64,000 nucleotides of DNA, from assembly GCA_024277435.1 (NCBI GenBank), contig JAJRVJ010000009.1:1226-65225 (forward strand), given 5' to 3'. The notes below the pieces were generated by a model. The model worked only from the letters and a program-made list of their open reading frames with translations. It did not search any database and was not told the origin of the DNA. Made by a program: the position numbers and the translations under genes. Source of the DNA: Patescibacteria group bacterium (GTDB lineage: Bacteria; Patescibacteriota; Patescibacteriia; UBA9570). How positions within the stretch are numbered: position 1 is the stretch's first letter; each line of letters opens with the position of its first letter. Shown here one piece after another: positions 25,163-64,000 of this stretch.

Positions 25163-25164
25163 AC

Positions 25165-36808: not shown

Positions 36809-38733
36809 ATATGCTAAAAATATTGAAAGACTGGATAATCGAAATAATGCGCATAATGTTCATCCCGCTAATTATAGCGTATCTATTATTAGTAGTTACT
36901 GATGGAGTTAACCAAGATATTATTAGTCCATTTATTATTATTTCCGACTTTTCTATCCCACTTATATTCGTAGCGATAGGGTACGGTGCGCATATGTATG
37001 CAAATAAAAAGGTAAAAACCGCACTTTCAAAAAAAGCTCAGTGGACTATCCACACTAGCATCGCATCGATAATTGCCATTATCACATGGATCGCATTACA
37101 AGATTCATTGATCCTCTACAAAATAATATGTGCTCTGATCATAATGGTTGGATCACTATCTGCATACATTGCACAAAATAAATCACAAAAACGTTGGGCT
37201 ATTATTTCCATAGTTACTGTGTGTATTTTAGCTACCGCGTTGATAATTTCTTTCATTGCACAATACGAAATAGGTTTTATATCATTTGATTTTTGGAATC
37301 ACTATAACTCTAGTAAGGTCTATTCACTTACTGGAGTAGTTGGGTCATTACTATTATCGTATCAATCTTTTTATGTACTAATTGGTAGCATTCTCAATTT
37401 AACAAATACAAGCATTGCAAACGCACAAATTGTGTACACACTAAGTGTAGCTATGGTATATCTTCTTGGTGCATATAGTATGTACTATATAGGTTGTAAC
37501 CTAGGTAGTCGTCGCTATGGAATCATTAGCGCCATTATCTTCGCTTTATTTCCAATGACCACCTGGGGTGGGGCGGGATTCTTTATTCCTAATACCCTCT
37601 CTCTTATTGTATGGCCTCTACTGTTCTACTTTGGAATGCAAAAAAGGAGCAAACGTTCCATATTTCTATTCATATTAAGCGGCTTAGTTATCTTCTTATA
37701 TCATCCTTGGGATTTAGGAATTATTTTACCAGCGTTTATTATCTGGAAAGTATTCTTACAAAAACATGTTAAAGGTTTTATTTTGTGGTTTATAGTTTTT
37801 TCTGTGGGCTTTATAAGCACAGAAATTATACTGTTTATATTTGCTCCTGATTTATTCTTTTCACTACATGATTGGCTACCAAATTTTTATGGAATTTACA
37901 ATAACATAATCAGCACCATAAATACTCAATCTAGCTTCAATCCTCAGGTATTGTTTACACTAAAAAATATTTTCATTACACCTCTAGCAATAATTGGATC
38001 ATTATTTGTAATCATACGGTACATCCAAGAGCGCAATACAGGTAAATTACAGCCTATCACAAAATTCTTACTTGCTCATGTAATATTACTATATCTACTG
38101 CTATTTCTTGGATTTATTTTCGCATATAATTTTCGCATTGTTGTATTTGTCTTATTTGTCTGTGTACCGCTAGCCGCATACATGCTTCATCAATTATCAC
38201 GCCGTCATATAATAACTGGCTCTATGATCTTAGGCCTATCATTTAGTGCCCTACTATTACACAACGTAAATGTATATACAATATTAAATGGCTCAACCTA
38301 TAGTTCTCAATCGGAAAGTCAAAACATATATGCAGGACTCAAACAGATTGATCAAGAGGCTATTATACTTACCGACCCATACAGCCGTACATTTCTTATA
38401 GCGCTTGGAGCTCGCTATCGCATCCATACTAATCCTGATGAAGAAAATGAATACTATCAGATTTTTCATGAGCAAGATTGGACAGAGTCTCAGATTAAAT
38501 ATATTCAAACATGGGATATTAAATATATTGCTATTACAAATCGTACCGTAGAATGGGCACGAACCGGTAAGCCAACAACTGCTGTAACCAACTACTTATC
38601 AAGAATTGATAGCTTTATTTCCACAAAAGAAACCCTGACAGATAAACTATCAGGCGATCTCAAAGCTATTTATAAGAGTGATGAATTTTCACTCTACCAG
38701 ATTCCGGAAGATCCGGCTGCGCTACTGTATTAA
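36805..38733 (+). CDS. Large polytopic membrane protein (>12 TM) with C-terminal extracytoplasmic domain; putative GT-C-like glycosyltransferase/polymerase
   Basis: 642-aa paralog of the 33816 gene. No confident family assignment. Confidence 0.55.
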   Translation: MNMLKILKDWIIEIMRIMFIPLIIAYLLLVVTDGVNQDIISPFIIISDFSIPLIFVAIGYGAHMYANKKVKTALSKKAQWTIHTSIASIIAIITWIALQDSLILYKIICALIIMVGSLSAYIAQNKSQKRWAIISIVTVCILATALIISFIAQYEIGFISFDFWNHYNSSKVYSLTGVVGSLLLSYQSFYVLIGSILNLTNTSIANAQIVYTLSVAMVYLLGAYSMYYIGCNLGSRRYGIISAIIFALFPMTTWGGAGFFIPNTLSLIVWPLLFYFGMQKRSKRSIFLFILSGLVIFLYHPWDLGIILPAFIIWKVFLQKHVKGFILWFIVFSVGFISTEIILFIFAPDLFFSLHDWLPNFYGIYNNIISTINTQSSFNPQVLFTLKNIFITPLAIIGSLFVIIRYIQERNTGKLQPITKFLLAHVILLYLLLFLGFIFAYNFRIVVFVLFVCVPLAAYMLHQLSRRHIITGSMILGLSFSALLLHNVNVYTILNGSTYSSQSESQNIYAGLKQIDQEAIILTDPYSRTFLIALGARYRIHTNPDEENEYYQIFHEQDWTESQIKYIQTWDIKYIAITNRTVEWARTGKPTTAVTNYLSRIDSFISTKETLTDKLSGDLKAIYKSDEFSLYQIPEDPAALLY

Positions 38734-40680
38734 ACGAGTAAGTTCCTCGTGAAGAATTTTGGAAACCCGTTCTATGGAATGATGTTTTCTAAAATATTGA
38801 CTTCCATTATCTCCAGCTTCTTGCAATTGTCGCGGATTACTTAAAATATCGTCAAGCAATGCACGTAATGTTTCAAAAGAATTTTGAGCTACCCATCCTA
38901 ATGCATGCTCTGTAATAATATTATCGGGATTTGCTGATAGACTCATAATAGGAGTGCCGTGCAATCCCGCTTGAATAAATGTATTTGGAAACCCCTCCAC
39001 TCGCGATGTATTCACAAATAGTTTAGCCTTACTAAAATATTCCCCAATTACATCAAAATCAACTTGATCATGAAATGTTACATTACTTAGCGCATTTACC
39101 TCTTGCTGTACGGAAGTAAATAGCACTTCATCACCTTTATTACAAATCATCACAAATTGCTCATCAGGAAATGCTTCAGCCAACCTTAAGAATACCATTG
39201 GTTGCTTCATTTCATGTGCGCGACCAACCCATAAAATACTATCTTTGATAGCACCCAATTCATCCTTACGCAATAAAAAGCCATTTGGTAAAAGCGTAAC
39301 ATGCGCCCCCATTTTTTCTAATAGAGATTGATGATTAGAATTTTGAGCAAAAAATTCTGTGGTATTATGCAACCCATACCTGTACGACTTACTCGCCAAC
39401 CAACTTGCACTATCGATAAATTCACCATTCACATCTATATCTGATGCTGTCATGTATACACCCCGCTTACGCGCCATTTTACAAAACCATGCTACAAGCC
39501 CAACTTCAAATGATGCAGAACGCGAAATATAAATATCTGCATTTATACGCTGGAAATCCAATAGCAATTTTAGCGTCCTCCAAAAACCAACAAATATGTT
39601 TGTGGATGCAGTATTGCGTACTTGCCAATATGTAATGTCGTTTTCACACACTAGCTTGGGTATGTCTTGAATCGCAGATACAACATGAATATCATATCCG
39701 TCACCATAACTACGACGTAACTCCTCCACTAACTGAAATAATTGAACCTCACTACCTCCAAAAACGCCTCCTCCTGGGTGGGAAACATTATACATATCAT
39801 AATTCACAATACATATACGTGTTTTTTCAGGTGGCGTTTTTTTAAACTCTAAAGCAATATCCATACCCTGATACTCCATGCCGAACATTACAAGAAAACG
39901 ATATATAATTCGCTTTATCGCTCTTGGTAATAAAGTGGTAACTATACTTAATCTGCCGCTCATCTCACGTTGCCATTCAACTGAAAAAAACTTTCCACCA
40001 TATTTTCGAGAAACTGCGCGAGATTCCTTCCAGAACTGATCGGCTCTACCTCCAGTTTTTGATTCTTCATGAATACGGAAGTGTCCTAATACCACAGGCA
40101 ATAACTCAATAGTCGTTTCTAATCCTATGCGAATATAGTAATCCTTATCCATCGAAAAATGTAATGACTCATCAAAATATCCAACACTGTCTAGTAATTC
40201 TCTTCGCCAAAAAACTGTGATATACGCCATAAACATCGTCTCATTCAATAATGCATCAAGAGAAAATTCCTGTGTTGGTAATAGATATTCTTCAGCCTGA
40301 CCATTCGTAGTGTTATATGCTAGGCACTTACCATACACCATACCCACCTCGGAATGTTCTTTAAAATGTTTGACGACAGCTTGAAATGCACCAGGCTCAA
40401 ACCAATCATCGGTACTTAGCCATACTACGATATCACCAGTAGCTTTACGTAAACCCTTATTCAAGGCATCGGACTGCCCTGTATCTGATTCAGAAATAAA
40501 TTTCACCTTATCCGGATACTTCTCCTGATACGCCTCTAGAATTTCAATGCTGTTGTCCGTGGATTCACCGTCATAAATAATATGCTCCCAATCTGCATGG
40601 CTTTGCTGCGTAACGCTATCAATAGCCTGCTGCAAATATTGCCCCTGGTTAAACGATGGAGTAACTACTGAAATTTTCAT
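38722..40680 (-). CDS. Bifunctional glycosyltransferase: N-terminal GT2 + C-terminal GT4 domains
   Basis: N-terminus ISVVTPSFNQGQYL...YDGESTDNS...LSTDDW. C-terminus GGSEVQLFQL... and EGFPNTFIQAGLHGTPIMS. Confidence 0.75.
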   Translation of the reverse strand: MKISVVTPSFNQGQYLQQAIDSVTQQSHADWEHIIYDGESTDNSIEILEAYQEKYPDKVKFISESDTGQSDALNKGLRKATGDIVVWLSTDDWFEPGAFQAVVKHFKEHSEVGMVYGKCLAYNTTNGQAEEYLLPTQEFSLDALLNETMFMAYITVFWRRELLDSVGYFDESLHFSMDKDYYIRIGLETTIELLPVVLGHFRIHEESKTGGRADQFWKESRAVSRKYGGKFFSVEWQREMSGRLSIVTTLLPRAIKRIIYRFLVMFGMEYQGMDIALEFKKTPPEKTRICIVNYDMYNVSHPGGGVFGGSEVQLFQLVEELRRSYGDGYDIHVVSAIQDIPKLVCENDITYWQVRNTASTNIFVGFWRTLKLLLDFQRINADIYISRSASFEVGLVAWFCKMARKRGVYMTASDIDVNGEFIDSASWLASKSYRYGLHNTTEFFAQNSNHQSLLEKMGAHVTLLPNGFLLRKDELGAIKDSILWVGRAHEMKQPMVFLRLAEAFPDEQFVMICNKGDEVLFTSVQQEVNALSNVTFHDQVDFDVIGEYFSKAKLFVNTSRVEGFPNTFIQAGLHGTPIMSLSANPDNIITEHALGWVAQNSFETLRALLDDILSNPRQLQEAGDNGSQYFRKHHSIERVSKILHEELTRLIQ

Positions 40681-42200
40681 ACCTTTGAACGTGAAGGAAT
40701 AATCTTACTAATATATGACGTGAACAACATCCGATCTTTTTTTGAAAAGATACCAATAACCAATCCAAGTAGAAGTATAAATACTCCAGCTAATAATAAT
40801 GCTAGCAAAACACCCCAAATAGATGATAACAACGATACACTATATCCCAATACAAAATATCCAACGCTCCCGATAATTAATAGCTTTACATAGATCATAA
40901 ACATCGATGTGTGCTGAACGCGTAACTTTCGCTCAATCATATATATATATATTGGTACAGGCCACTGAGCTATGAGTAATCCATACGCAGCGCCTTCAAT
41001 ATTAAATATTGGGATAAGAGTTGCTGTTAACGCTATATTAGAAATAACAATAGTGGCAATTACAGCAGCATTGGTCTTGGGTTTATCAAAACCAGCGAAA
41101 AAATAAAATGGAATTGCCGTAAGTGCATACAAACCATAACACACAACCAAAACCTGCATAATATACGCCGACTCAATAATATATGCATCACCCAACCAGT
41201 AACCAATAAATGGCTCTGCGTATACGATAAGTGGAATAACCATAGCCAATATAAACGTATAGGTAAATTTAGAAGCGCGTATATACAATTCCCGCAGTGC
41301 ATCTAGTCTCTGCTGTGTAAATAGTTCTGTTGATAGCGGAAATAATACATTATTGAGCGTTGCAATAAGTGCATGAATTTTCATAGCAATGGTCACTGGA
41401 ATTGCATAAAATGTTACAACAGTTGATCCTAAAAATGCGCTAATTAAAAATTTATCAAATTGAAATAACATATTACCAGCTATTGTTGCAATAAACGTAA
41501 AGCCCGCAAAATTCATTATTTTTTTCACAAGTCGCTTGTCCCAAGCAAGAACAAATGTGAAGTCAGGTAGTAATCGCTTTAATAAAATAATGTATCCAAT
41601 CAATAATGTAAGAGATGTAGCAGCGTTTACTAATAAAATAGCCAACAAACTTGGATGCAACCATAAAATGAACACAAGCACCGCCGTAAGGGCCATTGCG
41701 TTTATCAATACAACTATTGTATTAAGATGATATTTTTGCAAAGCTCGTGGAACCGCGCTCAATACACCATTGGCTAAATTAAAAAGTAAACTACCCACAG
41801 CCAACAGTAAACCGATTTTACTCACGTCACGTAGCTCTTCTGGAATCTTCAGTAAAGTAATGATAGAATCAGCGCCTAGCATCACAACAACGAATAACAC
41901 CACACCTAAACCAAGAAAGATGATGAGATTCGTACTAATAACTTTATTAACCTGTCTTGTGTCACCACGCGTATATGCTTCTGAAATATACCGTACAGAA
42001 GCTGATGCTAATCCAAGATCCAGAAACGATAATATGCCAATAACCGATAATAGCAGTGTATACACACCATATTGATCATCACCTAATGCACTCAATATAA
42101 ATGGAGTGATAGCAAAAGCTATCACAATAGACCAGCTAAACGCTAGTACATTACTCAGTGCATTAGTGATGGTTTGATGGGCCTTTTTCATAACAAACAT
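40677..42200 (-). CDS. Wzx-like MOP-superfamily polysaccharide flippase
   Basis: About 12-14 TM segments and a PST-family pattern. I chose the start at the Met preceding KKAHQTITNALSNVL; the ORF extends to 42272. Confidence 0.7.
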   Translation of the reverse strand: MFVMKKAHQTITNALSNVLAFSWSIVIAFAITPFILSALGDDQYGVYTLLLSVIGILSFLDLGLASASVRYISEAYTRGDTRQVNKVISTNLIIFLGLGVVLFVVVMLGADSIITLLKIPEELRDVSKIGLLLAVGSLLFNLANGVLSAVPRALQKYHLNTIVVLINAMALTAVLVFILWLHPSLLAILLVNAATSLTLLIGYIILLKRLLPDFTFVLAWDKRLVKKIMNFAGFTFIATIAGNMLFQFDKFLISAFLGSTVVTFYAIPVTIAMKIHALIATLNNVLFPLSTELFTQQRLDALRELYIRASKFTYTFILAMVIPLIVYAEPFIGYWLGDAYIIESAYIMQVLVVCYGLYALTAIPFYFFAGFDKPKTNAAVIATIVISNIALTATLIPIFNIEGAAYGLLIAQWPVPIYIYMIERKLRVQHTSMFMIYVKLLIIGSVGYFVLGYSVSLLSSIWGVLLALLLAGVFILLLGLVIGIFSKKDRMLFTSYISKIIPSRSKV

Positions 42201-42266
42201 AGTGAGTGTAGCGGCAATATACACTACAGTCAACGTACATATAAAGCTATGTGCTATACTGGGACT

Positions 42267-43397
42267 ATGCAATATTTAGCTATCCTTGGCAACGTACCAG
42301 AACTATCAGCCCTCGAGCTCAATCGCATGGGCATTACCGCTGAATGGCGAGGAGGTAGCGTAGCGGAATTATCCAACAAAATCGATATTAATCAGCTTGG
42401 TGGCACTGTTAAAATTGCTGAATATATAACTACTATTAAGCGCGATCTTGAAGGCTTAAAAGAACTATACGCACTCTTAGAGCAAGCCAGTGGGGATGGA
42501 AAAAAATTATGCTTTGGATTTAGCGTATATGCAGCCGATGCTGCAGTTACAGAAAAAGTGGAGAAACACTATAATAAAAAATTACGTGCTATTGGCATCG
42601 ATTGGAAAAAAAAGTTGAAAGAAGTGCATAATGGAGCAGTTCGTTATGTTGAAAGCAAAGAACCTGCTCTCTCTTCGGTAATTGTACAAAAAGAAAAATT
42701 ACTCAACCATAATACAGATTTCATCATTGCAATTCGTAAAAAAGAAATCATCCTGGGCCGCACTATAGAAGTACAAGATTATAAAGGTTTTTCTAAAAGA
42801 GACTTTGGTCGACCAGCGCGTGATCACCAATCTGGTATGTTACCACCAAAAGTAGCCCGTATGATGATGAATATCGCCCAACCAACCGGCGCAGGTTCAT
42901 TCGTTGATGCCTTTTGTGGATCGGGCACCGTGTTACAAGAAGCAACATTGCAAGGCCATAAAAATATCATTGGTGTTGATATCTCGAAGAAAGCCATTAC
43001 TGATACTAAAGAGAATTTCGAATGGATGAAACTGCCAGTACCAGAGCTCCATGTGGCTGATAGTCAAAAAATAAATGGGTTACTACCAAAGAATTCTGTG
43101 GAGTGTGTGGTAGGAGAAGGCTATCTTGGACCAACACGTCCTAAAAAAACCGAAAAGGTGCGTAGACAACTTATTAAACTCTACGATAATACAATTACCG
43201 CATTTAATGATATTTTAATTCCGGGCGGAAGAATTGTGTTAGCTGTTCCAGCATGGAAACGTTACGACGATATACTTACATTACCAATCAATGAAACCTT
43301 ACAGCGCTTGGGGATGAAGGAATTTCACGAACCGATTTTCTATGGCCGCGAACACGCACACGTATTGCGACACATTCACTTCTTAGAAAAGAAATAA
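42267..43397 (+). CDS. Putative RNA methyltransferase (N2-G/N6-A class, THUMP-like N-terminal domain)
   Basis: MTase motif I FVDAFCGSGTVLQEA. The internal Met at 42267 avoids the overlap with the Wzx-like gene; the ORF track starts it at 42174. Confidence 0.55.
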   Translation: MQYLAILGNVPELSALELNRMGITAEWRGGSVAELSNKIDINQLGGTVKIAEYITTIKRDLEGLKELYALLEQASGDGKKLCFGFSVYAADAAVTEKVEKHYNKKLRAIGIDWKKKLKEVHNGAVRYVESKEPALSSVIVQKEKLLNHNTDFIIAIRKKEIILGRTIEVQDYKGFSKRDFGRPARDHQSGMLPPKVARMMMNIAQPTGAGSFVDAFCGSGTVLQEATLQGHKNIIGVDISKKAITDTKENFEWMKLPVPELHVADSQKINGLLPKNSVECVVGEGYLGPTRPKKTEKVRRQLIKLYDNTITAFNDILIPGGRIVLAVPAWKRYDDILTLPINETLQRLGMKEFHEPIFYGREHAHVLRHIHFLEKK

Positions 43398-50911: not shown

Positions 50912-52309
50912 ATGAAACAAAAGGTCGCTCAAACTTTACCCCTAATGCTAACGTTTAGTGCAGTACTCACTCTCGGTGTACTGTTTTTTTCGTTTACAGC
51001 AGTAGATGCCGCCTTAGAAATTAATGATGAAACTACGCCGCCAGAAACAACCACAGAAACTAAAGAAAAAACAAAACGTACCAATGCTGAAATTAATAAA
51101 AAGGATACCGATTCGATAAAAAAAGATTCGCCTAAAATAGAATCTACAAAAAATGTCGTTCAATCAGATACGGATGAACAATCAAGTACCCTAAAAGTAT
51201 ATGAAGATACCTACACTGTTGCTGGGGAAACAATAGAACTGAATGGGTATTTTAAAAATGATGTTATCGTTGCCGGGAATAACGTTACGATTTCTGGAGT
51301 TGTAGAAGGTGATGTAATTTCAGCTGCTGCTAATATTACAATCGATGCCGTTATAAGTGGCGACGCACGACTAGCTGGTGGAAATATTACCATCCAAAAT
51401 GTGATAGAACGCAATGCAACGGTATTCGGCGGAAGAGTTATTATAGAAGACAGTGCCAATATCCAGCGTGATCTTTTTGTACAGGCCGGAGACCTCCTCA
51501 TTGAGGGGGGTATTGATGGTGAGATTTCTGGAAGTGCTGGCAATACAATAATTGATGCGCCAGTTAACGGTGATGTGTATTTCAAAAGTGTCGGAAATTT
51601 ACGCTTACGCTCTAACGCAAAAATTAATGGCGATCTATATTATTCCTCCGCACAGCAAGTTGTAGCTGATGATATAGCTATTATTAATGGTGAAACAGTC
51701 TACTCACCGCCACTAGTTGAACCAAGAGAACAAACATCAAAATTCACACTATGGTTTTGGGTTCGTAAAGTAACCGGACTATTTGGATTGTGGTTATTGG
51801 GTATTGTTGTATTGAATGTACTTAAACGAAAATCTGTTGCTGTAGTAAAACATATGCTTGCTTATGTAGGACAAAGTATGGGGTGGGGCGTAATATACGT
51901 ATTCACTGTCCCGGCCGTACTTACAGTGCTATTAATTACTCTTGTAGGAATACCTTTAAGTATCTTTGGATTACTATTATTTGGAGCATCGCTGTACTTA
52001 GCAAAAATTTATATTGGCACAGCCATTGGTAAGCTTATATTCTCAAAACAACAATCAATGATTTGGCCAATGCTCGCCGGTGTAACTATTTACTACATCC
52101 TCATTGAAGGCCTAGGATTGCTGCCATTCCCATGGCTTATTGCTGGATCACTTGTAAATGCAATTGGTATTATCTGGGCTGCCGGTGGAATCGTGTTGTA
52201 CTTACGAGATCGTATGCGCGAACACAATGCTAAACCATCCATCAAACACCGTAAGAACAAAACAACCAAGTCCGTTAAAAACAAAAAGACAAAGCCAGTT
52301 AATCTGTAA
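50912..52309 (+). CDS. Secreted/membrane protein with bactofilin-like (polymer-forming, DUF583-type) β-helical repeat domain followed by ~6 TM helices and Lys-rich tail
   Basis: Signal peptide, T/E/K-rich spacer, and repeats such as VAGNNVTISGVVEGDVISAAANITIDAVISGDARLAGGNITIQNVIERNATVFGG. The C-terminal half is hydrophobic and the tail reads KHRKNKTTKSVKNKKTK. Confidence 0.6.
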   Translation: MKQKVAQTLPLMLTFSAVLTLGVLFFSFTAVDAALEINDETTPPETTTETKEKTKRTNAEINKKDTDSIKKDSPKIESTKNVVQSDTDEQSSTLKVYEDTYTVAGETIELNGYFKNDVIVAGNNVTISGVVEGDVISAAANITIDAVISGDARLAGGNITIQNVIERNATVFGGRVIIEDSANIQRDLFVQAGDLLIEGGIDGEISGSAGNTIIDAPVNGDVYFKSVGNLRLRSNAKINGDLYYSSAQQVVADDIAIINGETVYSPPLVEPREQTSKFTLWFWVRKVTGLFGLWLLGIVVLNVLKRKSVAVVKHMLAYVGQSMGWGVIYVFTVPAVLTVLLITLVGIPLSIFGLLLFGASLYLAKIYIGTAIGKLIFSKQQSMIWPMLAGVTIYYILIEGLGLLPFPWLIAGSLVNAIGIIWAAGGIVLYLRDRMREHNAKPSIKHRKNKTTKSVKNKKTKPVNL

Positions 52310-55611: not shown

Positions 55612-56352
55612 ATGATTGGTATATATGATTCAGGAATAGGTGGCTTAGGAATTTTCAAAAAAATCCGTGGAATTCTACCATATGAATCTATCACGTATTT
55701 TGCAGATTCTGCACATTTTCCTTTTGGCGATCGAGATAAAGATGAAATCCGATCAATTACACTTACCGCTTTACAGAAACTAGAACAAACCTGTGACGTT
55801 ATTATTATTGCCTGCAATACTGCTTCAGTGAACGATATCGATTACTATCGCAACAATATTACAGCGCCAATCATCGCTGTTGTACCCGTAATTAAAACTG
55901 CAGCTCATGTAACCGATACAAATCATATTGCTTTACTGGCAACTACATCAACCAATTCGGCATCATACACCGATAATCTCATTCAACAATTTGCTAATAC
56001 TGTAACTGTAGAAAAAATTAGCTGCTCCGGATTAGCGGATGCAGTTGAATATGATGATGTGAACAAACAACGTTTACTACTTGAAGATGCGCTTAAAAAC
56101 TTAGGTGATATTGATGTGATTGTGCTCGGCTGTACTCACTACACATTAATTAAAGGCTTGATTCAAAACATCGCTGGGCCAGAGGTAAAAATCCTTGATT
56201 CCAATACAGCAGTCGCCCGCCACGCATTACGAATTATGCATGAAACCAATGTTGAGCAACCACAAAATACTCCAGAATACATATTTCTAAGTAGTAATAC
56301 AGATGATGCTAGCTATCGAGAACGCATCACTGCAATTCTTCAAACATTATAA
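55612..56352 (+). CDS. murI: Glutamate racemase
   Basis: IGIYDSGIGGL and ...IIIACNTAS...VLGCTHY catalytic Cys motifs. Confidence 0.9.
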   Translation: MIGIYDSGIGGLGIFKKIRGILPYESITYFADSAHFPFGDRDKDEIRSITLTALQKLEQTCDVIIIACNTASVNDIDYYRNNITAPIIAVVPVIKTAAHVTDTNHIALLATTSTNSASYTDNLIQQFANTVTVEKISCSGLADAVEYDDVNKQRLLLEDALKNLGDIDVIVLGCTHYTLIKGLIQNIAGPEVKILDSNTAVARHALRIMHETNVEQPQNTPEYIFLSSNTDDASYRERITAILQTL

Positions 56353-58661: not shown

Positions 58662-59303
58662 CTATACAAGCGGATCGGTACTAAACCCTTGCATATTATG
58701 TCGTAACTGCAGCGTAATTGCAAATAACAAACTTACTATAGCTATACCTGTTGATAATAAAAATATCCAGGTTGAATTAGACAGCGCCTCTTCTTGAGTA
58801 ACCTCAAATTGAGCGACTACTTCTTCATCACTACGCACTCCATTATATATGGTTTGCACATATGCTTCATACATACCATGATCTAGTTCATCAACAGGAA
58901 CCTCCACACTCCACACTCCATCTATATTTGCAGTTGTTGAAGTACGTATATAACTATTTGGGATAAGAATTGTTACCGCAGTACCTGGTTGCAATGCCTC
59001 TCCAGAAAAATAGATTACTGTTTCTTGATCCTTCTCTAAAAAACTATCTAATCCAATATATTGAATGGTATTTAATCGAACCGTATTATTAACAACCTCC
59101 TTTTGAGCAATGACAATATCATTTTGCTTAGCTTGAACGCTCATGTTAGGAATAATTTCTTGTTGCAAAATACGATTAGCCTCTTGTAGATCATTAACAG
59201 AAACTACTTGATATTCTTGGGTAGCAAAACCAACACTAGGCAATAATACGCTAAGTGCAATATATATTCCTATTATATATTTTAAATTTGCATTAATTTG
59301 CAT
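58662..59303 (-). CDS. Secreted hypothetical protein sharing the C-terminal anchor module (..EE.LSN.TW-TM-LQLR) with the adjacent giant protein
   Basis: Signal peptide. C-terminus AQFEVTQEEALSNSTWIFLLSTGIAIVSLLFAITLQLRHN matches the giant protein's ARFVIEEETRLSNTTWLVIINIIVALIALMVSIILQLRKQ. Confidence 0.55.
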   Translation of the reverse strand: MQINANLKYIIGIYIALSVLLPSVGFATQEYQVVSVNDLQEANRILQQEIIPNMSVQAKQNDIVIAQKEVVNNTVRLNTIQYIGLDSFLEKDQETVIYFSGEALQPGTAVTILIPNSYIRTSTTANIDGVWSVEVPVDELDHGMYEAYVQTIYNGVRSDEEVVAQFEVTQEEALSNSTWIFLLSTGIAIVSLLFAITLQLRHNMQGFSTDPLV

Positions 59304-62300
59304 TGGAAATTTCTTGAAGTGAGCGAGTTCGTTGTTTTCGAAGTTGTAAAATAATCGATACCATCAAGGCTATCAACGCTACAATAATATTAATAATCAC
59401 TAACCATGTTGTATTCGATAGTCGCGTCTCTTCTTCAATAACAAACCGAGCTATCTCCACTTGATCTCCCTGTACACCATTTATTTGACTAGCTACATGA
59501 ACTGTATGCTCACCTTCTACAAGTAAGTTTGTTGGTAGCGTCATCTGCCAAGCGCCATCAGATGCTTGCGCAATTTGTACAATAGGATCGGAAAATACTG
59601 TAGTAGTAATTAATGCTGGTAGTTGTTTTAAAAATAATGGCTTCACATTCTCTTGTAGTGACGGCAATACACCAGCCAATACAATTGAAGTATCTTGATC
59701 TTGATTAGGCTGCGGCTTTCTTAATACCCAAGCCACGATATCAGCAATGGTAATTGTACGTTGAATAGTTACCACAGGGATATCATCATCACTAACCGTT
59801 GCATTCGCACCAACGTTGATTGAAAATAATGTTTCACGCATATCCAATGTTAGGCCGCCTTGGAAGAAAAATGACTGCAATTCAGATAGTGCAATAACTG
59901 GCTCTGTAAGGGCATATGTCGTTGGCTCTTCTGTACCAGTTGCGTCGTATGTTGAGGAAGCGGTATCTTGGGCAGTATCTTGCGCTGAGTTCACATCAAT
60001 TTCAATGGATAAATCACCATCCAATTGATCAATAATTCCATCATTATCGGTATCACTAGTTGTAGGATCTGTACCTAACGTATCTTCAACGGCATCAAGT
60101 AAGCCATCATCATCAGAATCCTTATCATTAGGATCTGAGCCCTTATCAACCTCTTCACCATCCGATAATTCATCATCATCACTATCCTCATCTACTGGAT
60201 CAGTACCAGCTTCTGATTCTTCATTATCATCTAGGCCATCACCGTCGGTGTCGGCATCTGTAGGATTAGTACCAGCTGCTAGCTCATCTGCATCATTAAT
60301 ACCATCACCATCGGTGTCGGCGTTAGTAGGATCAGTTCCTAAACTAAGCTCATCTGCATCATTAATACCATCACCATCGGTGTCGACTGATAATGGATTT
60401 GTACCAAGTAAAACTTCATCACTATCAGAAATACCATCACCATCGGTGTCGGCGTTAGTAGGATCAGTTCCTAATTCATCTTCTTGATCTCCGCCAATCC
60501 AATCATCGTCTTCATCATCTTCTCCTGGGTTATCAATTTCCTCCTCAATACCGTCAGAAATACCATCTCCATCACTATCAGCATTTGTTGGATCTGTTCC
60601 TGCATCTTGCTCATCGCTATCAGAAATACCATCACCGTCGGTGTCGGCATCTGTAGGATTAGTACCAGCTGCTAGCTCGTCGCCATCGGAAATACCATCA
60701 TTATCGCTGTCCATCGCTAACGGATTACTGAGCGCAATAACTTCATCACCATCCGAGATGCCATCGCTATCGCTATCAGTATTAGTAGGATCGGTTCCTA
60801 AATCTACTTCTTCACCATCAGTAAGTCCATCGCCATCGGTGTCGGCATTAGTAGAATCGGTACTATATAATGGCTCATCATAATCACTTAACCCATCATC
60901 ATCAGCGTCATCATCAATTGGGCTAGGATCTTCACCATCGGGTATTCCATCGCCATCAGAATCATTACTCCCTGGCTCAGTCCCTAATATAATTTCTAAA
61001 CCATCACCCAAACCATCGTTATCTGTATCGGCATTTACAGGATCGGTACCATTTTGTATTTCCTGACCATCAGTAATACCATCACCATCAGAATCACTTT
61101 GATTAACATCTGTGCCAAGATCCCGCTCTATATCATCATCTACACCATCATTATCGGCATCAGTATCGGTAACATCTGGAATACCATCACTATCAGTATC
61201 GGGCAAGTCACTACTATCATCAACATCAACTAGCTCTATAACCACACCCGGATCATCATCTTCACCGTCATTAATACCATCATTATCAGTATCAGGATTA
61301 TCTGGTAATGTACCTTGATTAATTTCCTCTTGATCACTCACACCATCACCGTCGGTGTCGGCGTTAGTAGGATCAGTACCCAAGTCTTGCTCTTCTTGAT
61401 CTGTTAAACCATCATTATCAGAATCAATATCTGTATCATCAACGGGAGCGTCGTCAATAACCGGCGTATCATCAACTTGATCGCTAGCGTCTGTTGCGTC
61501 ATCTGTATCAGTTGCATCGTCTACCTGACCATCAACATCATCAGTGGTATCAATAGCATCCACTGGAAGTGTACTTACTACTGGCGCTGGTTTATATGTA
61601 ATAATACTTAATGATGTAAAAACAGATTTAAATAAATTTGGACTAATGCCTCGTAAATAAAACTGCTGTGTGCCTGTACTTGTTCCAATATATTGATTCA
61701 AATTAATAGTTGCGCCATTATTTACCGATACTCTTTCAAACAATAGTTGTTTATTCTTATCAAACAACTGAATCAGATAATCATTAGGAGCTGCAACAGT
61801 TAAATTAATCGTACTATCTAATGAATGACGTGAACCCTCTTCTGGAGCAATGATGCCTGGTTGCACTGGTTTATGAATTGACCATACTTTGACCTTATAA
61901 TCTTGAATTACCTTACCCTTACCACCAGTTTCTTTAATGGTTAATTCCACTGGCCCTTTGGGCCATGGGAATAATGTGAATTTATTACTACCCGAAATCA
62001 CACCTTGTCCCGTATTATCAGTTGGCCCCTCTAATGTATATGGGCCACCAAGAAAATCAGCGGACATTGTTAGCGTACTGCCCGGATTATACTTAAGGTA
62101 TGCCAATGTTGGATTTTTTGCAGTAGTAACACGCTGGCCACTACGCTGATCTAATGAAAGTACATTACTCACTCCATCCGCTACAATCATTTCCAGAGTG
62201 TTAGTAACATTTTTGCCATTAGTAGCTTTAATCTCTAAATCATACACCCCAGCCCCCACAAAAAATGGCATGGCACACGATGCTAGATTACTCGCATCAA

Positions 62301-64000
62301 TACTTCCATTACAACTTACAGCCACTGCGCCAGATTTTTGATTTAATATATTGAATACAATTTTTGCTCCTTGTTGCATGGTTGGTACATATGCAATGAA
62401 TTCTTCAGGTACACTATTCAAAATTATTGCATCACCAAATTGTGGATTCGGAAACACTAATTGAGCCGCCTGATGTTTCGCTGTAAATGTAAAACGCTTC
62501 TTTAAAGCAACATTCTTTTTTGCATTATTTGGATTTGTTAACCCAGTAGAAACCGCATACGATTTACCAAGTTCAAGCTGCTTTTTCTTTACAACGAAAT
62601 CAACTTGCTTCTTTTTATCTGCAGCTTTCTTCTTATTTACAATCTGCTTACCAACTTTATCTGTTTTCTTCTTATAGTTATTTACTACAAACTGAACGAT
62701 ATTACCTTCATCAACGCCCTCCAATTCAAATGTAAGCTTTTCGTTCGGAAGATCAATATGCACGTTATCACCACCTTCAACTTTTGCATTTGCGGTATTG
62801 CCAGTAATTGTAAAATTATTAATACTCTCCTCCGTATCACTTAATGTTGTAACTGTCTGATCAGCTGAAGTACGAGCATTACCATTTGCATCAGTGACTG
62901 TAACTTGATAGTGATACTGCGTACCAGCTGTTAAGCCCTTAAAGGTATGTGTATGTACTTTTTGTAAATTAGTATATGATGCGGCTTTGCCATAGTTAGT
63001 AGTTTCACCCATGTGAATTACCACTGTACTATTTTCATCGGTTTGCACACTAGCTGTAAAAGCACTCGCTGTTATATTAGTTGCTGTTAAGCTTTGAATT
63101 ACCGGCGCCGCGGTATCCTGTACCTCCTCTTCTTGAGCTACATCAGTAGCAAAATTACGAACACTATCGGTAAAAATCCCACTAACTCTATCACCATCCT
63201 TAAACAACACAATCATATAATAATATGTAGTTTCTGTGGTAAGACCTGTTATTTCCACTGCAAAATCGTTAGTTACCTCTGTTACTTGAACAAAATCTGT
63301 TTGTTTATTTTCAACGGCTGCTTGATCGGTACCATAATACACATCAGCCGTACCAGAGGCTTGGCCAGTTAACCATGTAATAGTTGCTGTAGTATCTGTA
63401 GTTGCAACCTCCAGATTGGTAATAGGATCATCATCCTGAGATTTTTGTGTAACAGTAAATTCTGATGAATTACCACCTGAAGTTTGCATTACCGCCACAG
63501 CTGATGCATCACCTAATTTTACGTCAGTTAATGTAAATTTCCCATCACCATCAGCCGTAACAGTACCAATATAATTTAAATTATCCTCAACCTCTGGATA
63601 CGCATATACATCAATCGTTGCATTAAATTCCGCTGCACCTTGCACAGTAGAGCTAGTATAATTCACCTCTGGCACAGTTAAGCTATCTTGCGCACCAGTA
63701 AAAATTGAAAAAATGTCATCGGTACCATTTTTATCATACATATTCTTCCTCCATTGATTTTGACGAGACGTAGCATCTCGCACAGCGATTCCTACTCTAG
63801 TATTGCCTACAATAGTATTTTGCGCTCGATCTGTTACTACTGTAGAACCAATTTCATTACCAATTGAACCATTATTAAGCATTACACCAGTTTGATTTAC
63901 TTCAATAACATTACCAGATACAATAGTATTTGATACCTCATCTAGTTGAATTCCTGATTGGGCGTTATACGATATTGTATTATATGTAATACGATTATTG
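59293..64000 (-). CDS. Giant cell-surface protein (>1,560 aa, 5' end beyond window): parallel β-helix repeats, FN3/Ig-like domains, Lys-rich linker, ~20 TSP3-type Ca-binding Asp-rich repeats, C-terminal TM anchor
   Basis: The frame stays open from 63882 to the window end (NNRITYNTISYNAQSGIQLDEVSNTIVSGNVIEVNQTGV...). FN3 segments (TATITWL...TYYYMIV). Repeats DTDGDGISDGDE(L)xxGTDPTNA. C-terminal hydrophobic helix plus RKQR. Confidence 0.8.
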   Translation of the reverse strand, partial: NNRITYNTISYNAQSGIQLDEVSNTIVSGNVIEVNQTGVMLNNGSIGNEIGSTVVTDRAQNTIVGNTRVGIAVRDATSRQNQWRKNMYDKNGTDDIFSIFTGAQDSLTVPEVNYTSSTVQGAAEFNATIDVYAYPEVEDNLNYIGTVTADGDGKFTLTDVKLGDASAVAVMQTSGGNSSEFTVTQKSQDDDPITNLEVATTDTTATITWLTGQASGTADVYYGTDQAAVENKQTDFVQVTEVTNDFAVEITGLTTETTYYYMIVLFKDGDRVSGIFTDSVRNFATDVAQEEEVQDTAAPVIQSLTATNITASAFTASVQTDENSTVVIHMGETTNYGKAASYTNLQKVHTHTFKGLTAGTQYHYQVTVTDANGNARTSADQTVTTLSDTEESINNFTITGNTANAKVEGGDNVHIDLPNEKLTFELEGVDEGNIVQFVVNNYKKKTDKVGKQIVNKKKAADKKKQVDFVVKKKQLELGKSYAVSTGLTNPNNAKKNVALKKRFTFTAKHQAAQLVFPNPQFGDAIILNSVPEEFIAYVPTMQQGAKIVFNILNQKSGAVAVSCNGSIDASNLASCAMPFFVGAGVYDLEIKATNGKNVTNTLEMIVADGVSNVLSLDQRSGQRVTTAKNPTLAYLKYNPGSTLTMSADFLGGPYTLEGPTDNTGQGVISGSNKFTLFPWPKGPVELTIKETGGKGKVIQDYKVKVWSIHKPVQPGIIAPEEGSRHSLDSTINLTVAAPNDYLIQLFDKNKQLLFERVSVNNGATINLNQYIGTSTGTQQFYLRGISPNLFKSVFTSLSIITYKPAPVVSTLPVDAIDTTDDVDGQVDDATDTDDATDASDQVDDTPVIDDAPVDDTDIDSDNDGLTDQEEQDLGTDPTNADTDGDGVSDQEEINQGTLPDNPDTDNDGINDGEDDDPGVVIELVDVDDSSDLPDTDSDGIPDVTDTDADNDGVDDDIERDLGTDVNQSDSDGDGITDGQEIQNGTDPVNADTDNDGLGDGLEIILGTEPGSNDSDGDGIPDGEDPSPIDDDADDDGLSDYDEPLYSTDSTNADTDGDGLTDGEEVDLGTDPTNTDSDSDGISDGDEVIALSNPLAMDSDNDGISDGDELAAGTNPTDADTDGDGISDSDEQDAGTDPTNADSDGDGISDGIEEEIDNPGEDDEDDDWIGGDQEDELGTDPTNADTDGDGISDSDEVLLGTNPLSVDTDGDGINDADELSLGTDPTNADTDGDGINDADELAAGTNPTDADTDGDGLDDNEESEAGTDPVDEDSDDDELSDGEEVDKGSDPNDKDSDDDGLLDAVEDTLGTDPTTSDTDNDGIIDQLDGDLSIEIDVNSAQDTAQDTASSTYDATGTEEPTTYALTEPVIALSELQSFFFQGGLTLDMRETLFSINVGANATVSDDDIPVVTIQRTITIADIVAWVLRKPQPNQDQDTSIVLAGVLPSLQENVKPLFLKQLPALITTTVFSDPIVQIAQASDGAWQMTLPTNLLVEGEHTVHVASQINGVQGDQVEIARFVIEEETRLSNTTWLVIINIIVALIALMVSIILQLRKQRTRSLQEISNAN
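60010..61560 (-). repeat. Coding tandem-repeat region (TSP3-like DxDxDGxxDxxE units); includes near-identical 66-bp DNA repeats (60281/60347) and ~390-bp-spaced duplicates (60241/60634)
   Basis: The direct nucleotide repeats are visible in the sequence. The plus-strand Ser-rich antisense ORFs are their mirror images. Confidence 0.8.

What the first reader, a model, noticed from the sequence alone, without database searches (positions are those of the whole stretch)
58662..64000. Shared novel-looking C-terminal sorting/anchor module on a giant surface protein and its small neighbour
Both proteins end with ...NGV..D.E.A.F.v.EE.(R/A)LSN(T/S)TW, then a ~22-aa hydrophobic helix, then LQLR(K/H).... 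They are otherwise unrelated in size: a protein of more than 1,560 aa versus a 213-aa secreted protein. This resembles the logic of PEP-CTERM, PGF-CTERM or LPXTG-type tripartite signals (motif, TM, basic tail) but with a different motif, SN[TS]TW. No sortase or exosortase is in the window.
Basis: seen in the sequence. Interest (0 to 1): 0.65.

Follow-up and report, generated by a model that had tools for sequence, protein, structure and literature searches.

The report
Shared Ig-plus-membrane-anchor base, not sorting signal
A giant surface protein and its small neighbour in an uncultured groundwater-type (Kerfeldbacteria) bacterium end in the same undescribed membrane-hugging domain plus conserved membrane helix, because the small protein is a "headless" copy of the giant's base; this looks like a permanent anchor and pairing device, not a new cleaved sorting signal.

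Summary
The giant ORF (59293 to beyond 64000, minus strand; 1,929 aa in full) and the 213-aa ORF (58662-59303) share ...F.V..E..LSN[TS]TW, a TM helix and LQLR[KH] (BLASTP E 2e-13). No Pfam or NCBIfam sorting-signal model matches.

The sortase-type reading is poorly supported:
- Homology is not confined to a short signal. The whole mature small protein aligns with the giant's last ~190 aa (hhalign E 1e-32).
- AlphaFold models place the last strand of an Ig-like domain directly into the TM helix, with no linker. LSNTTW is therefore the strand/helix junction.
- The TM is position-specifically conserved (Asn+5, Ala+9, Gln+20) and is the best-conserved part of the small protein.
- About 30% of giant homologues have 40-66-aa cytoplasmic tails ending in a second motif (HSALGV-COOH).
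- No sortase, exosortase or rhomboid was found in the window ORFs tested, and no such gene is a conserved neighbour in 20 related loci.

The module is found in about 96 of the 150 top-scoring representative clusters; every source-named member is Kerfeldbacteria (CPR). Giant and small genes are adjacent with overlapping stop/start in about 14 distinct loci.

Best reading: a lineage-specific type-I anchor base that probably pairs the giant adhesin-like protein with its headless paralogue. Interest is moderate to low.

The parts
59293..64000 (-). Giant surface-protein gene, 3' part (1,568 codons plus stop in the window). The full protein, P0007, is 1,929 aa and its first 361 codons lie beyond the window end.
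   Evidence: Pfam finds TSP3_bac x15, Pur_ac_phosph_N and fn3. The orthologue in L001 carries NosD/Beta_helix hits.
63645..64000 (-). C-terminal part of the right-handed beta-helix repeats of the giant (boundaries approximate).
   Evidence: Translation NNRITYNTISYNAQSGIQLDEVSNTIVSGNVIEVNQ.... Beta_helix/NosD hits on orthologue P0018. Database name 'right-handed parallel beta-helix repeat-containing protein' for P0043.
62863..63414 (-). Two FN3-like / purple-acid-phosphatase-N-like beta-sandwich domains of the giant.
   Evidence: Pfam PF16656 at residues 157-224 and PF00041 at 296-340 of the 1,529-aa ORF.
60013..61545 (-). Acidic array of bacterial thrombospondin type-3 (Ca2+-binding) repeats in the giant (boundaries approximate).
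   Evidence: PF18884 TSP3_bac, E 8e-77, 15 stretches. Sub-threshold CglD and MtsD hits arise from the same repeats.
59617..59883 (-). Pre-Ig 'base' region of the giant (helix plus small sheet), homologous to the N-terminal domain of the small protein.
   Evidence: hhalign in the same register, E 3.5e-5 for this part alone against 0.35-0.96 for 20 column shuffles. The AF2 models show the same order of secondary-structure elements.
59419..59616 (-). Membrane-apposed Ig-like (BIg/Big_13-like) domain of the giant.
   Evidence: AF2 strands 159-224 of the 265-aa model, pLDDT about 90-95. Weak Big_13 hit. Tandem Ig arrays of other giant proteins match profile positions 4-64 only.
59404..59421 (-). 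LSNTTW: junction between the last Ig strand and the start of the TM helix (helix N-cap plus interfacial Trp).
   Evidence: strand 211-224, helix from 226.
59341..59403 (-). TM helix of the giant, LVIINIIVALIALMVSIILQL, with the conserved Asn+5, Ala+9 and Gln+20.
59296..59340 (-). Short basic cytoplasmic tail of the giant, RKQRTRSLQEISNAN.
   Evidence: tail-length statistics.
59293..59303 (-). 11-nt overlap of the giant's stop codon with the small gene's ATG (...AATGCAAATTAA), suggesting translational coupling.
   Evidence: The same kind of overlap is seen in L001, L002, L008 and L009.
58662..59303 (-). Small partner gene (213 aa, P0001), a headless paralogue of the giant's base.
59220..59303 (-). 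Signal peptide of the small protein (residues 1-28, ...SVGFA/TQ).
   Evidence: AF2 helix 3-25.
59022..59195 (-). N-terminal helix plus small sheet of the small protein (residues 37-94).
58785..59021 (-). Ig-like domain of the small protein (residues 95-173).
   Evidence: AF2 pLDDT 93-97. Foldseek match to 4kdv, the MpIBP BIg domain: 24% identity, rmsd 4.0, probability 1.00. NCBIfam Ca_tandemer 25.7 bits, below the cut-off of 50.
58767..58784 (-). LSNSTW strand/helix junction of the small protein.
58704..58766 (-). TM helix of the small protein, IFLLSTGIAIVSLLFAITLQL.
58665..58703 (-). Conserved cytoplasmic tail of the small protein, RHNMQGFSTDPLV.

Best explanation
The shared C-terminus is a permanent type-I membrane-anchoring base, not a removable sorting tag.

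Proposed mechanism:
- Both proteins are exported by Sec. The small one has a classical signal peptide; the giant has a long conserved hydrophobic leader.
- Translocation stops at the C-terminal helix, and the basic residues (LQLR[KH]...) stay in the cytoplasm.
- The last beta-strand of an Ig-like (BIg-type) domain runs straight into that helix, so the Ig domain sits on the membrane surface.
- LS-x-T-T-W is the strand/helix junction: Ser, Asn and Thr act as helix N-cap residues, and the Trp sits at the lipid interface.

The small protein is an ancient headless duplicate of the giant's last ~190 residues (helix, small sheet, Ig domain, TM). It is encoded immediately downstream with an overlapping stop/start.

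I infer that the two assemble side by side through their paralogous Ig-TM bases, with the conserved polar TM residues (Asn+5, Gln+20) in the interface. This would give a membrane-anchored surface complex. Its head (beta-helix, FN3-like domains, Ca2+-binding TSP3 repeats) is adhesin-like, and its cytoplasmic tails can dock an unknown intracellular partner.

Shown by computation: homology, fold, the junction geometry, the conservation pattern and the gene adjacency.
Inferred: Sec export and topology, absence of cleavage, hetero-oligomerisation and an adhesive function.
For: Homology is extensive:
- BLASTP gives E 2e-13 over 75 aa.
- Profile-profile alignment of the whole mature small protein (residues 37-208) to the giants' last ~190 aa gives E 1.2e-32, probability 99.9%.
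- The pre-Ig part alone gives E 3.5e-5, against 0.35-0.96 for 20 shuffles.

Structure:
- AF2 models of the small protein (pLDDT 85.9) and of the giant's last 265 aa (pLDDT 85.0) show the same order of elements.
- In both, the last Ig strand (161-174 and 211-224) is followed two residues later by the TM helix (176-205 and 226-264). There is no linker.
- Fold matches are generic Ig/FN3 folds. The best local match is a BIg adhesin repeat, 4kdv.

Conservation of the TM:
- Over 95 modules: S-4 in 91, T-1 in 76, W0 in 84, N+5 in 63, A+9 in 62, L+13 in 68, Q+20 in 68, R+22 in 52.
- In the small family, pairwise identity is 0.48-0.74 for the motif, TM and QLRHN segments, against 0.27-0.29 for the ectodomain.

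Tails: 17 of 54 giants have cytoplasmic tails of at least 40 aa. 15 of the 54 giants end in [AP][LM][GDS][VI]-COOH, 11 of them with those long tails, and the tail often includes a poly-Asp run.

Gene arrangement: giant then small in the window and in L001-5, L007-10, L012-14 and L016, with overlapping stop/start.

No known signal: no sorting-signal model hits the last 100 aa at E<=1.
Against: - No experiment or proteomic data show that the C-terminus is retained.
- Hetero-oligomerisation is inferred only from paralogy, adjacency and TM conservation. No multimer model could be run.
- The pairing is not universal. Two giants lie 20 kb apart on one contig (L017, L020) without a small partner next to them. 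The 333-505-aa carriers such as P0053 appear to stand alone.
- Whole genomes could not be searched, so a distant processing enzyme cannot be excluded.
- The window proteins themselves have short basic tails, which is formally compatible with a tripartite signal.
Confidence: 0.6

Rival explanations
1. One reading: LSN[TS]TW, the TM helix and the basic tail form a new tripartite protein-sorting signal. An unidentified Kerfeldbacteria enzyme would recognise it, cleave at or near the motif, and transfer the protein to a lipid, the wall or the medium.
For: - The form fits: a conserved motif directly before a TM helix and basic residues at the extreme C-terminus of both window proteins.
- The motif is the most invariant short element across about 95 carriers.
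- At least four or five different ectodomain classes carry it: giants, two small classes, a 333-505-aa class, and P0147/P0150.
- No existing model describes it.
- Several multi-TM ORFs in the window have no family assignment.
Against: - The conserved unit includes a whole Ig domain and, for the small protein, the whole mature chain.
- The motif plus TM is never seen without the Ig domain in 303 kb of loci.
- There is no flexible linker. The motif is at a confidently modelled strand/helix junction.
- The TM sequence and the cytoplasmic face (QLRHN) are conserved more than the ectodomain.
- Long tails with a conserved extreme C-terminal motif occur in about 30% of giants.
- Only two carriers were found per locus. 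The conserved neighbours are housekeeping genes: trpS, murD, murI, gpmI, pgm and RNase J.
- The Asn is variable.
Confidence: 0.12
2. The two proteins are independent type-I membrane proteins that merely inherited the same anchor by duplication. They do not interact. The small protein has its own role, for example as a spacer or coat component or as a competitor for insertion sites, and the TM conservation reflects a shared requirement of the insertion machinery or the lipid environment.
For: - Some giants lack an adjacent small partner.
- Other carriers stand alone.
- TM conservation could reflect interaction with a common third component rather than with each other.
Against: - The giant-then-small order is kept, with overlapping stop/start, in about 14 distinct loci spanning roughly 25-60% identity.
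- The small protein retains exactly the membrane-proximal base and nothing else.
- There is a hint that tail motifs are complementary between partners: short-tailed giants are paired with small proteins ending in ...DPL[VML] or ...HPVL, and the long-tailed giant in L010 ends in ...HNALGV while its partner lacks such a motif.
Confidence: 0.2
3. The motif is conserved because it is a glycosylation site. N-T-T and N-S-T are N-X-S/T sequons, and the Ser/Thr could be O-mannosylated by the PMT_2-type enzymes encoded in the same window.
For: - The window carries a large glycosylation island with at least three PMT_2-type GT-C paralogues.
- 55 of 95 members have Asn at -3 followed by x-T.
Against: - Asn is replaced by S, K, D, Q, G, Y, W or L in 40% of members, including orthologues of both window proteins (LSRTTW, LSGSTW, LSYSTW, LSWPTW).
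- The invariant positions are Ser-4, Thr-1 and Trp0.
- The residues sit at the membrane surface at the start of the helix, which is a poor position for an oligosaccharyltransferase.
- No link between the island and the locus is shown.
Confidence: 0.05

Closest known systems
Tripartite C-terminal sorting signals: LPXTG/sortase, PEP-CTERM/exosortase, PGF-CTERM/archaeosortase A, GlyGly-CTERM/rhombosortase
   Same: The position at the extreme C-terminus and the order of elements: short conserved motif, hydrophobic helix, basic residues. The carriers are secreted surface proteins.
   Different: - None of their models match.
- The motif differs and its Asn is variable.
- Homology extends 100-190 aa upstream.
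- There is no linker before the motif.
- The TM is conserved position by position.
- Many members have long tails with a second terminal motif.
- Carriers are few and paralogous rather than many and unrelated.
- No cognate enzyme was found in the window or loci.
Bacterial Ig-like repeats of giant Ca2+-dependent adhesins: Pfam Big_13, NCBIfam Ca_tandemer, the MpIBP RII repeats (PDB 4kdv, 4p99) and Bap (7dm0)
   Same: - Beta-sandwich fold.
- The 'D-G-x-W-x-h-x-h-P...L..G.H...' signature.
- Tandem arrays in other giant proteins match profile positions 4-64.
- Foldseek match to 4kdv at 24% identity.
- Weak sequence hits.
   Different: - All family hits are below the curated cut-offs.
- Here there is a single copy, welded to a conserved TM helix, rather than a soluble tandem spacer in a T1SS-secreted RTX adhesin.
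Co-operonic type-I membrane adhesin pairs of minimal bacteria: Mycoplasma genitalium P140/P110 ('Nap') and M. pneumoniae P1 with P40/P90. This comparison rests on my own knowledge and was not tested here.
   Same: What it would work like: two adjacent genes each encoding a surface protein with a large ectodomain, one C-terminal TM helix and a cytoplasmic tail. They assemble into a heteromeric adhesion complex in small-genome, host-dependent bacteria.
   Different: - There is no sequence or fold relationship.
- The Mycoplasma partners are both large and do not share a paralogous base.
- A Kerfeldbacteria complex is hypothetical.
Ig-plus-TM subunits of eukaryotic immune receptors that pair through polar TM residues (TCR-CD3, BCR-Ig-alpha/beta). 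An analogy from my own knowledge.
   Same: A membrane-proximal Ig domain sits directly on a TM helix with conserved polar residues, and a small Ig-TM subunit supplies the cytoplasmic tail for a larger partner.
   Different: Unrelated lineage and no homology. The polar residues here are Asn and Gln, not charged pairs. It is purely a mechanistic analogy.
Myxococcus TSP3-repeat surface proteins CglD and MtsD (NCBIfam NF033765, NF047639)
   Same: They share arrays of Ca2+-binding thrombospondin type-3 repeats in a cell-surface protein.
   Different: - Scores are far below the cut-offs (106.6 against 400; 50.6 against 800).
- The similarity is limited to the repeats.
- Those proteins are lipoproteins or secreted proteins and lack the Ig-TM base.

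Membership tests
LPXTG / sortase sorting signal (TIGR01167 class) | LPXTG-like pentapeptide, then a TM helix and a basic tail at the C-terminus | tested here: not met
   No LPXTG-like motif is present in the sequence. No NCBIfam or Pfam anchor model hits the last 100 aa at E<=1.
LPXTG / sortase sorting signal (TIGR01167 class) | A sortase encoded in the genome, often nearby | tested here: inconclusive
   None of the 20 window ORFs scanned matched a sortase, and none is a conserved neighbour. The rest of the genome was not available.
PEP-CTERM/exosortase, PGF-CTERM/archaeosortase, GlyGly-CTERM/rhombosortase | The signature motif (PEP, PGF or GG) directly before the TM helix, matched by the family's HMM | tested here: not met
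   The motif here is LS-x-T-T-W. No such model is hit. The only archaeal S-layer-related hit has E 0.066 and 11.4 bits against a cut-off of 400.
PEP-CTERM/exosortase, PGF-CTERM/archaeosortase, GlyGly-CTERM/rhombosortase | A cognate multi-TM processing enzyme co-occurring with the targets | tested here: inconclusive
   No exosortase, archaeosortase or rhomboid family hit in the window ORFs tested. Some multi-TM ORFs remain unassigned. Whole-genome profiling was not possible.
Generic tripartite C-terminal sorting signal (any new family of that class) | Homology confined to a ~25-35-aa C-terminal tag on otherwise unrelated proteins | tested here: not met
   Homology covers about 100 aa in all carriers and about 170-190 aa between the small protein and the giant. 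The motif plus TM is never found without the Ig domain.
Generic tripartite C-terminal sorting signal (any new family of that class) | A TM region conserved only in hydrophobicity, with the protein ending a few basic residues after it | tested here: not met
   The TM is conserved position by position and is the best-conserved segment of the small protein. 25 of 54 giants have tails of at least 26 aa, and 15 end in a second conserved motif.
Generic tripartite C-terminal sorting signal (any new family of that class) | Multiple targets per genome | tested here: inconclusive
   Two carriers in the 64-kb window, two per related locus and two giants on one 91-kb contig. Complete genomes could not be scanned.
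Bacterial Ig-like domain (Pfam Big_13 PF19077; NCBIfam Ca_tandemer NF033510) | Score above the curated cut-off of the family HMM | tested here: not met
   Big_13 scores 12.8, 16.5 and 21.4 bits against a cut-off of 27. Ca_tandemer scores 25.7 bits against 50.
Bacterial Ig-like domain (Pfam Big_13 PF19077; NCBIfam Ca_tandemer NF033510) | Ig-like beta-sandwich fold with the D-G-x-W / G-x-H strand signature | tested here: met
   AF2 beta-sandwich with pLDDT above 90. Foldseek match to the BIg domain 4kdv. Tandem Ig arrays match profile positions 4-64.
Type-I (N-out, C-in) single-pass membrane protein | N-terminal export signal, one C-terminal TM helix, and positive charge on the C-terminal side | tested here: met
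   Signal peptide and C-terminal helix in the small protein. In the giant, a hydrophobic leader and a C-terminal helix followed by RKQRTR. The topology itself is inferred from the positive-inside rule and has not been measured.

The most novel reading that the evidence does not exclude
LS-x-T-T-W plus the conserved TM helix is the recognition element of a Kerfeldbacteria-specific processing or sorting system, run by an enzyme that belongs to no known sortase, exosortase or rhombosortase family. Candidate reactions are intramembrane shedding or lipid or wall attachment of the giant adhesin. The headless small paralogue would act as a co-substrate or regulator. A related but less radical version: the pair is a receptor-like complex whose conserved cytoplasmic tails (HSALGV-COOH, STDPLV-COOH) couple surface binding to an intracellular partner in an episymbiotic CPR cell.
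Probability: 0.12. Interest if true: 0.7.

Novelty: new variant of a known kind. Interest (0 to 1): 0.35.

Why it matters
CPR/Patescibacteria are thought to live attached to host cells, yet almost nothing is known about how their large surface proteins are held on the cell and organised.

This analysis defines an undescribed, lineage-specific base module: an Ig-like domain fused directly to a conserved TM helix. It also defines a conserved giant-plus-headless-paralogue gene pair in Kerfeldbacteria. That gives a concrete, testable candidate for a membrane-anchored adhesion complex, and a family that could be added to the domain databases.

It also shows that a 'motif, TM helix, basic tail' pattern alone is not enough to call a new sorting signal. 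The extent of homology, the linker geometry, the TM conservation and the tail conservation must all be checked.

In itself it is an ordinary kind of feature (a C-terminal membrane anchor shared by paralogues), so the wider impact is modest unless processing or signalling is demonstrated.

Tried and rejected
- The search for homologous proteins with the giant's last 130 aa and with an 18-sequence module alignment returned nothing. P0007 is in that collection, so this is a word-index limitation and not evidence of absence.
- The exact look-up of P0001 found no contig.

Known sorting-signal families: rejected after NCBIfam and Pfam scans of the whole proteins and of their last 100 aa.

Candidate enzymes:
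- 20 window ORFs (membrane or unannotated) gave no sortase, exosortase or rhomboid hit.
- The neighbours conserved across loci are housekeeping genes: trpS, murD, murI, gpmI, pgm and RNase J. There is also one membrane protein with a sub-threshold bactofilin domain.

N-glycosylation sequon idea: rejected as the main constraint, because Asn is present in only 55 of 95 members.

Other negatives:
- Sequence search of the PDB gave only a weak match to Bap Ig repeats, E 0.0066.
- The literature has no hit for LSNTTW, and nothing on such a module in papers on CPR surface proteins or Kerfeldbacteria.
- A fused-chain pseudo-dimer AlphaFold run was considered and dropped, because the tool reports no interface metrics.

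Co-variation between giant and small TM ends (giant His+20 with small ...[GR]YN; giant Gln+20 mostly with small ...RHN, with one exception, L014) cannot be separated from shared phylogeny.

Full report
**1. What is in the sequence**

Two ORFs lie on the minus strand. One is 59293..63882 as listed from its first ATG. The other is 58662..59303 and encodes 213 aa.

The larger reading frame stays open to base 63999. The 1,568 codons in the window are an exact substring of P0007, a 1,929-aa database protein. The giant therefore begins about 1.1 kb beyond the window.

Its stop codon overlaps the ATG of the small gene by 11 nt (...AATGCAAATTAA).

BLASTP of the two products gives one significant segment: small 128-202 against giant 1442-1516, 35% identity, E 2e-13.
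- NGV..D.., then A.F.V..EE..LSN[TS]TW
- about 21 hydrophobic residues ending in LQL
- then R[KH]

A six-frame scan finds this motif-plus-TM arrangement only twice in the 64 kb.

**2. Known families**

NCBIfam and Pfam scans of both proteins and of their last 100 residues hit no sorting-signal or anchor model at E<=1. The C-terminal region gives only sub-threshold Ig-like hits:
- Ca_tandemer, 25.7 bits against a cut-off of 50
- Big_13, 12.8-16.5 bits against a cut-off of 27

The body of the giant has these features:
- 15 bacterial TSP3 repeats (E 8e-77)
- two FN3 / Pur_ac_phosph_N sandwiches
- right-handed beta-helix repeats at its N-terminal side

**3. Distribution**

Close homologues of the small protein (P0002-P0005, 49-53% identity) keep the whole C-terminus, including the tail LQLRHNMxGFSTDPL[VML].

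A 107-column profile of the module was searched against 1.84 billion representatives. It gave 486 hits at E<=1e-3 and 149 at E<=1e-10. The 150 listed hits fall into two groups:
- About 96 have one full-length match at the extreme C-terminus. These are giants of 1,000-2,000 aa, two classes of small proteins (180-214 aa and 218-303 aa), a 333-505-aa class, and a few others.
- The rest are tandem Ig arrays that match only profile positions 4-64. This identifies the first two thirds of the module as a BIg-type domain.

Every member that a source names is from Candidatus Kerfeldbacteria (CPR). The proteins are annotated only as 'hypothetical' or as 'right-handed parallel beta-helix repeat-containing protein'.

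**4. Gene context**

The giant gene is immediately followed by a small module-bearing gene in the window and in L001-5, L007-10, L012-14 and L016. That is about 14 distinct loci. The stop and start usually overlap.

Exceptions:
- Two giants lie 20 kb apart on one contig, with valS and ruvB downstream instead of a small partner.
- P0053 (426 aa) appears to stand alone.

The neighbours conserved across loci are housekeeping genes: trpS, murD, murI, gpmI, pgm and RNase J. There is also one membrane protein with a sub-threshold bactofilin domain. None is sortase-, exosortase- or rhomboid-like. Ten membrane or unknown ORFs of the window were scanned against NCBIfam and ten against Pfam, and no such family was hit.

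**5. Anatomy of the module**

AlphaFold2 with an 18-sequence alignment models the small protein at mean pLDDT 85.9. The elements in order are:
- signal-peptide helix 3-25
- helix 36-50
- small sheet 54-83
- an Ig-like sandwich 95-174, whose last strand (161-174, ...EVVAQFEVTQEEAL) is followed two residues later by the TM helix 176-205

The giant's last 265 residues (pLDDT 85.0) show the same order of elements: helix 70-85, sheet 88-113, Ig 159-224, helix 226-264.

LSN[TS]TW is therefore the junction between the final Ig strand and the TM helix. Ser, Asn and Thr are typical helix N-cap residues, and Trp is a typical interfacial residue; this last point is an inference from general structural knowledge. 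There is no flexible linker of the kind that precedes known sorting motifs.

Foldseek finds only generic Ig/FN3 folds. The best local match is the BIg repeat of the M. primoryensis adhesin, 4kdv. Sequence search of the PDB gives only weak matches to Bap Ig repeats.

**6. Extent of homology**

Profile-profile alignment of the small-protein family against the giants' C-terminal region aligns small residues 37-208, essentially the whole mature chain. The result is probability 99.9% and E 1.2e-32.

The part upstream of the Ig domain, taken alone, aligns in the same register with E 3.5e-5. Twenty column-shuffled controls give E 0.35-0.96.

The small protein is thus a headless paralogue of the giant's base. 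It is not an unrelated protein carrying the same tag.

In 303 kb of window plus loci, the motif plus TM never occurs without the Ig domain.

**7. Conservation pattern**

Counts over 95 aligned modules, with positions numbered from the Trp:

| Position | Residue | Members |
|---|---|---|
| -13 | Phe | 85 |
| -5 | Leu (Ile in a further 14) | 69 |
| -4 | Ser | 91 |
| -3 | Asn | 55 |
| -2 | Thr | 71 |
| -1 | Thr | 76 |
| 0 | Trp | 84 |
| +5 | Asn | 63 |
| +9 | Ala | 62 |
| +13 | Leu | 68 |
| +20 | Gln | 68 |
| +22 | Arg | 52 |

Orthologues of both window proteins vary at the Asn position: LSRTTW, LSGSTW, LSYSTW and LSWPTW.

In the small family, mean pairwise identity by segment is as follows:

| Segment | Mean pairwise identity |
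|---|---|
| Motif | 0.57 |
| TM | 0.48 |
| QLRHN | 0.74 |
| Ectodomain | 0.27-0.29 |
| Signal peptide | 0.18 |

A TM helix with position-specific conservation and polar residues suggests specific helix-helix contacts rather than a disposable hydrophobic plug (inference).

Of 54 giants, 25 have cytoplasmic tails of at least 26 aa and 17 have tails of at least 40 aa. Fifteen end in [AP][LM][GDS][VI]-COOH (HSALGV, GGALGV, GPLDI), and many carry a poly-Asp run. A conserved extreme C-terminus beyond the TM argues that the tail is retained and used.

**8. Interpretation**

The best-supported reading is a permanent type-I anchor base:
- Sec export
- stop-transfer at the C-terminal helix
- an Ig domain seated on the membrane
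- a cytoplasmic tail

The conserved, translationally coupled giant/headless-paralogue pair, together with the TM conservation, suggests that the two assemble through their homologous Ig-TM bases. The result would be a surface complex with an adhesin-like head (beta-helix, FN3-like domains, Ca2+-binding TSP3 repeats).

The anchoring part is well supported. The pairing and the adhesive role are inferences.

The sorting-signal hypothesis keeps about 10-15% probability. Whole genomes could not be searched for extra carriers or for a co-distributed enzyme, and the window proteins themselves have short basic tails.

**9. Comparison and novelty**

It is not a member of the LPXTG, PEP-CTERM, PGF-CTERM or GlyGly-CTERM classes; their defining features were tested and not met.

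Its extracellular part has the fold and signature of BIg/Big_13-type domains but scores below their cut-offs.

Functionally it resembles co-operonic type-I adhesin pairs such as Mycoplasma P140/P110, and by analogy the Ig-TM subunits of immune receptors. Both comparisons rest on my own knowledge and were not tested.

I found no literature on it.

I rate it a new variant of a known kind: a lineage-specific C-terminal membrane-anchor base shared by paralogues, of moderate to low interest.

**10. What did not work**

Two searches of the 5.8-billion-protein collection with short module queries returned nothing. One alignment was too divergent for locus finding. Two fold libraries were unavailable. 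The per-genome copy number and the full taxonomic range therefore remain open.

Noticed in passing
P0007 residues 1-110 (beyond the window end); the same in P0018, P0034, P0032 and other giants: The giants share a conserved, unusual N-terminal leader. It has a basic N-tail, a hydrophobic segment at about 25-48, and a conserved loop 'LF.SPQ.SF...D...GY.GSY.SHRRWKHN.RFGT'. A second hydrophobic segment at about 87-107 follows, and then the beta-helix begins. It is unclear whether this is an extended signal peptide, a hairpin or an uncleaved signal anchor. In the last case the giant would be tethered at both ends.
   Followed up: partly
C-termini of P0015, P0016, P0019, P0027, P0031, P0033, P0039, P0061, P0064, P0082, P0090; L010:3091-3990: About 30% of giant homologues have 40-66-aa cytoplasmic tails, many with a poly-Asp run, ending in a conserved extreme C-terminal motif [HG][SG][AP]L[GDS][VI]-COOH (HSALGV, GGALGV, GPLDI). 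In lineages where the giant's tail is short, including the window, the small partner ends in a hydrophobic ...STDPL[VML] or ...HHPVL. This hints at a docking site for an unknown cytoplasmic partner.
   Followed up: partly
window 16000-42300: A large glycosylation island. It holds several GT-A/GT-B glycosyltransferases, sugar-nucleotide enzymes, at least three PMT_2-type (GT-C, protein-mannosyltransferase-like) multi-TM paralogues (22805-27655) and a flippase-like protein (40677-42272). Multi-TM ORFs with no Pfam or NCBIfam hit are also present (33816-35153, 36805-38733, 36002-36808). It may glycosylate surface proteins, but no link to the giant/small pair was shown.
   Followed up: partly
window 50912-52309 (+): A 465-aa protein with an N-terminal signal or TM segment, a sub-threshold bactofilin domain (27.3 bits against 27.9) and five C-terminal TM segments. 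It has no NCBIfam hit. It is conserved in synteny next to pgm in five Kerfeldbacteria loci.
   Followed up: partly
L004, L005, L006, L007 (CAZSXL010000083.1, CAYLOJ010000023.1, CAYTGF010000063.1, CAYZUI010000050.1): MAGs titled 'uncultured Gammaproteobacteria bacterium' carry the giant/small module genes typical of Kerfeldbacteria. L004 and L005 also have trpS-murD downstream. The taxonomic labels are probably wrong.
   Followed up: no
L001:1-4702: Directly upstream of the giant orthologue lies a second, unrelated giant protein of more than 2,154 aa (DUF2341, Laminin_G_3, cadherin-like and Big_9 domains). It lacks the Ig-TM module and ends in a basic ...WRPYKK. An 88-aa ORF with a C-terminal hydrophobic segment follows it.
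   Followed up: no
L001:11740-13071 compared with window 55612-56352: The L001 relative has a MurL-type (MurL_N / MurL_epimerase_C) gene between trpS and murD. The window and L002 instead have a classical glutamate racemase (murI) after murD. The route to D-Glu therefore seems to differ within one syntenic block.
   Followed up: no
L010:4725-8519: The gyrA gene next to a giant/small pair carries an intein with a LAGLIDADG homing-endonuclease domain.
   Followed up: no
L017 and L020 (contig Ga0210044_10000184, 91 kb): One Kerfeldbacteria contig carries two different module-bearing giants (1,913 aa ending in GGALGV; 1,614 aa ending in GPLDI) about 20 kb apart. Both lack TSP3 repeats and lack an adjacent small partner. 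The family therefore has more than one giant per genome in some lineages.
   Followed up: partly
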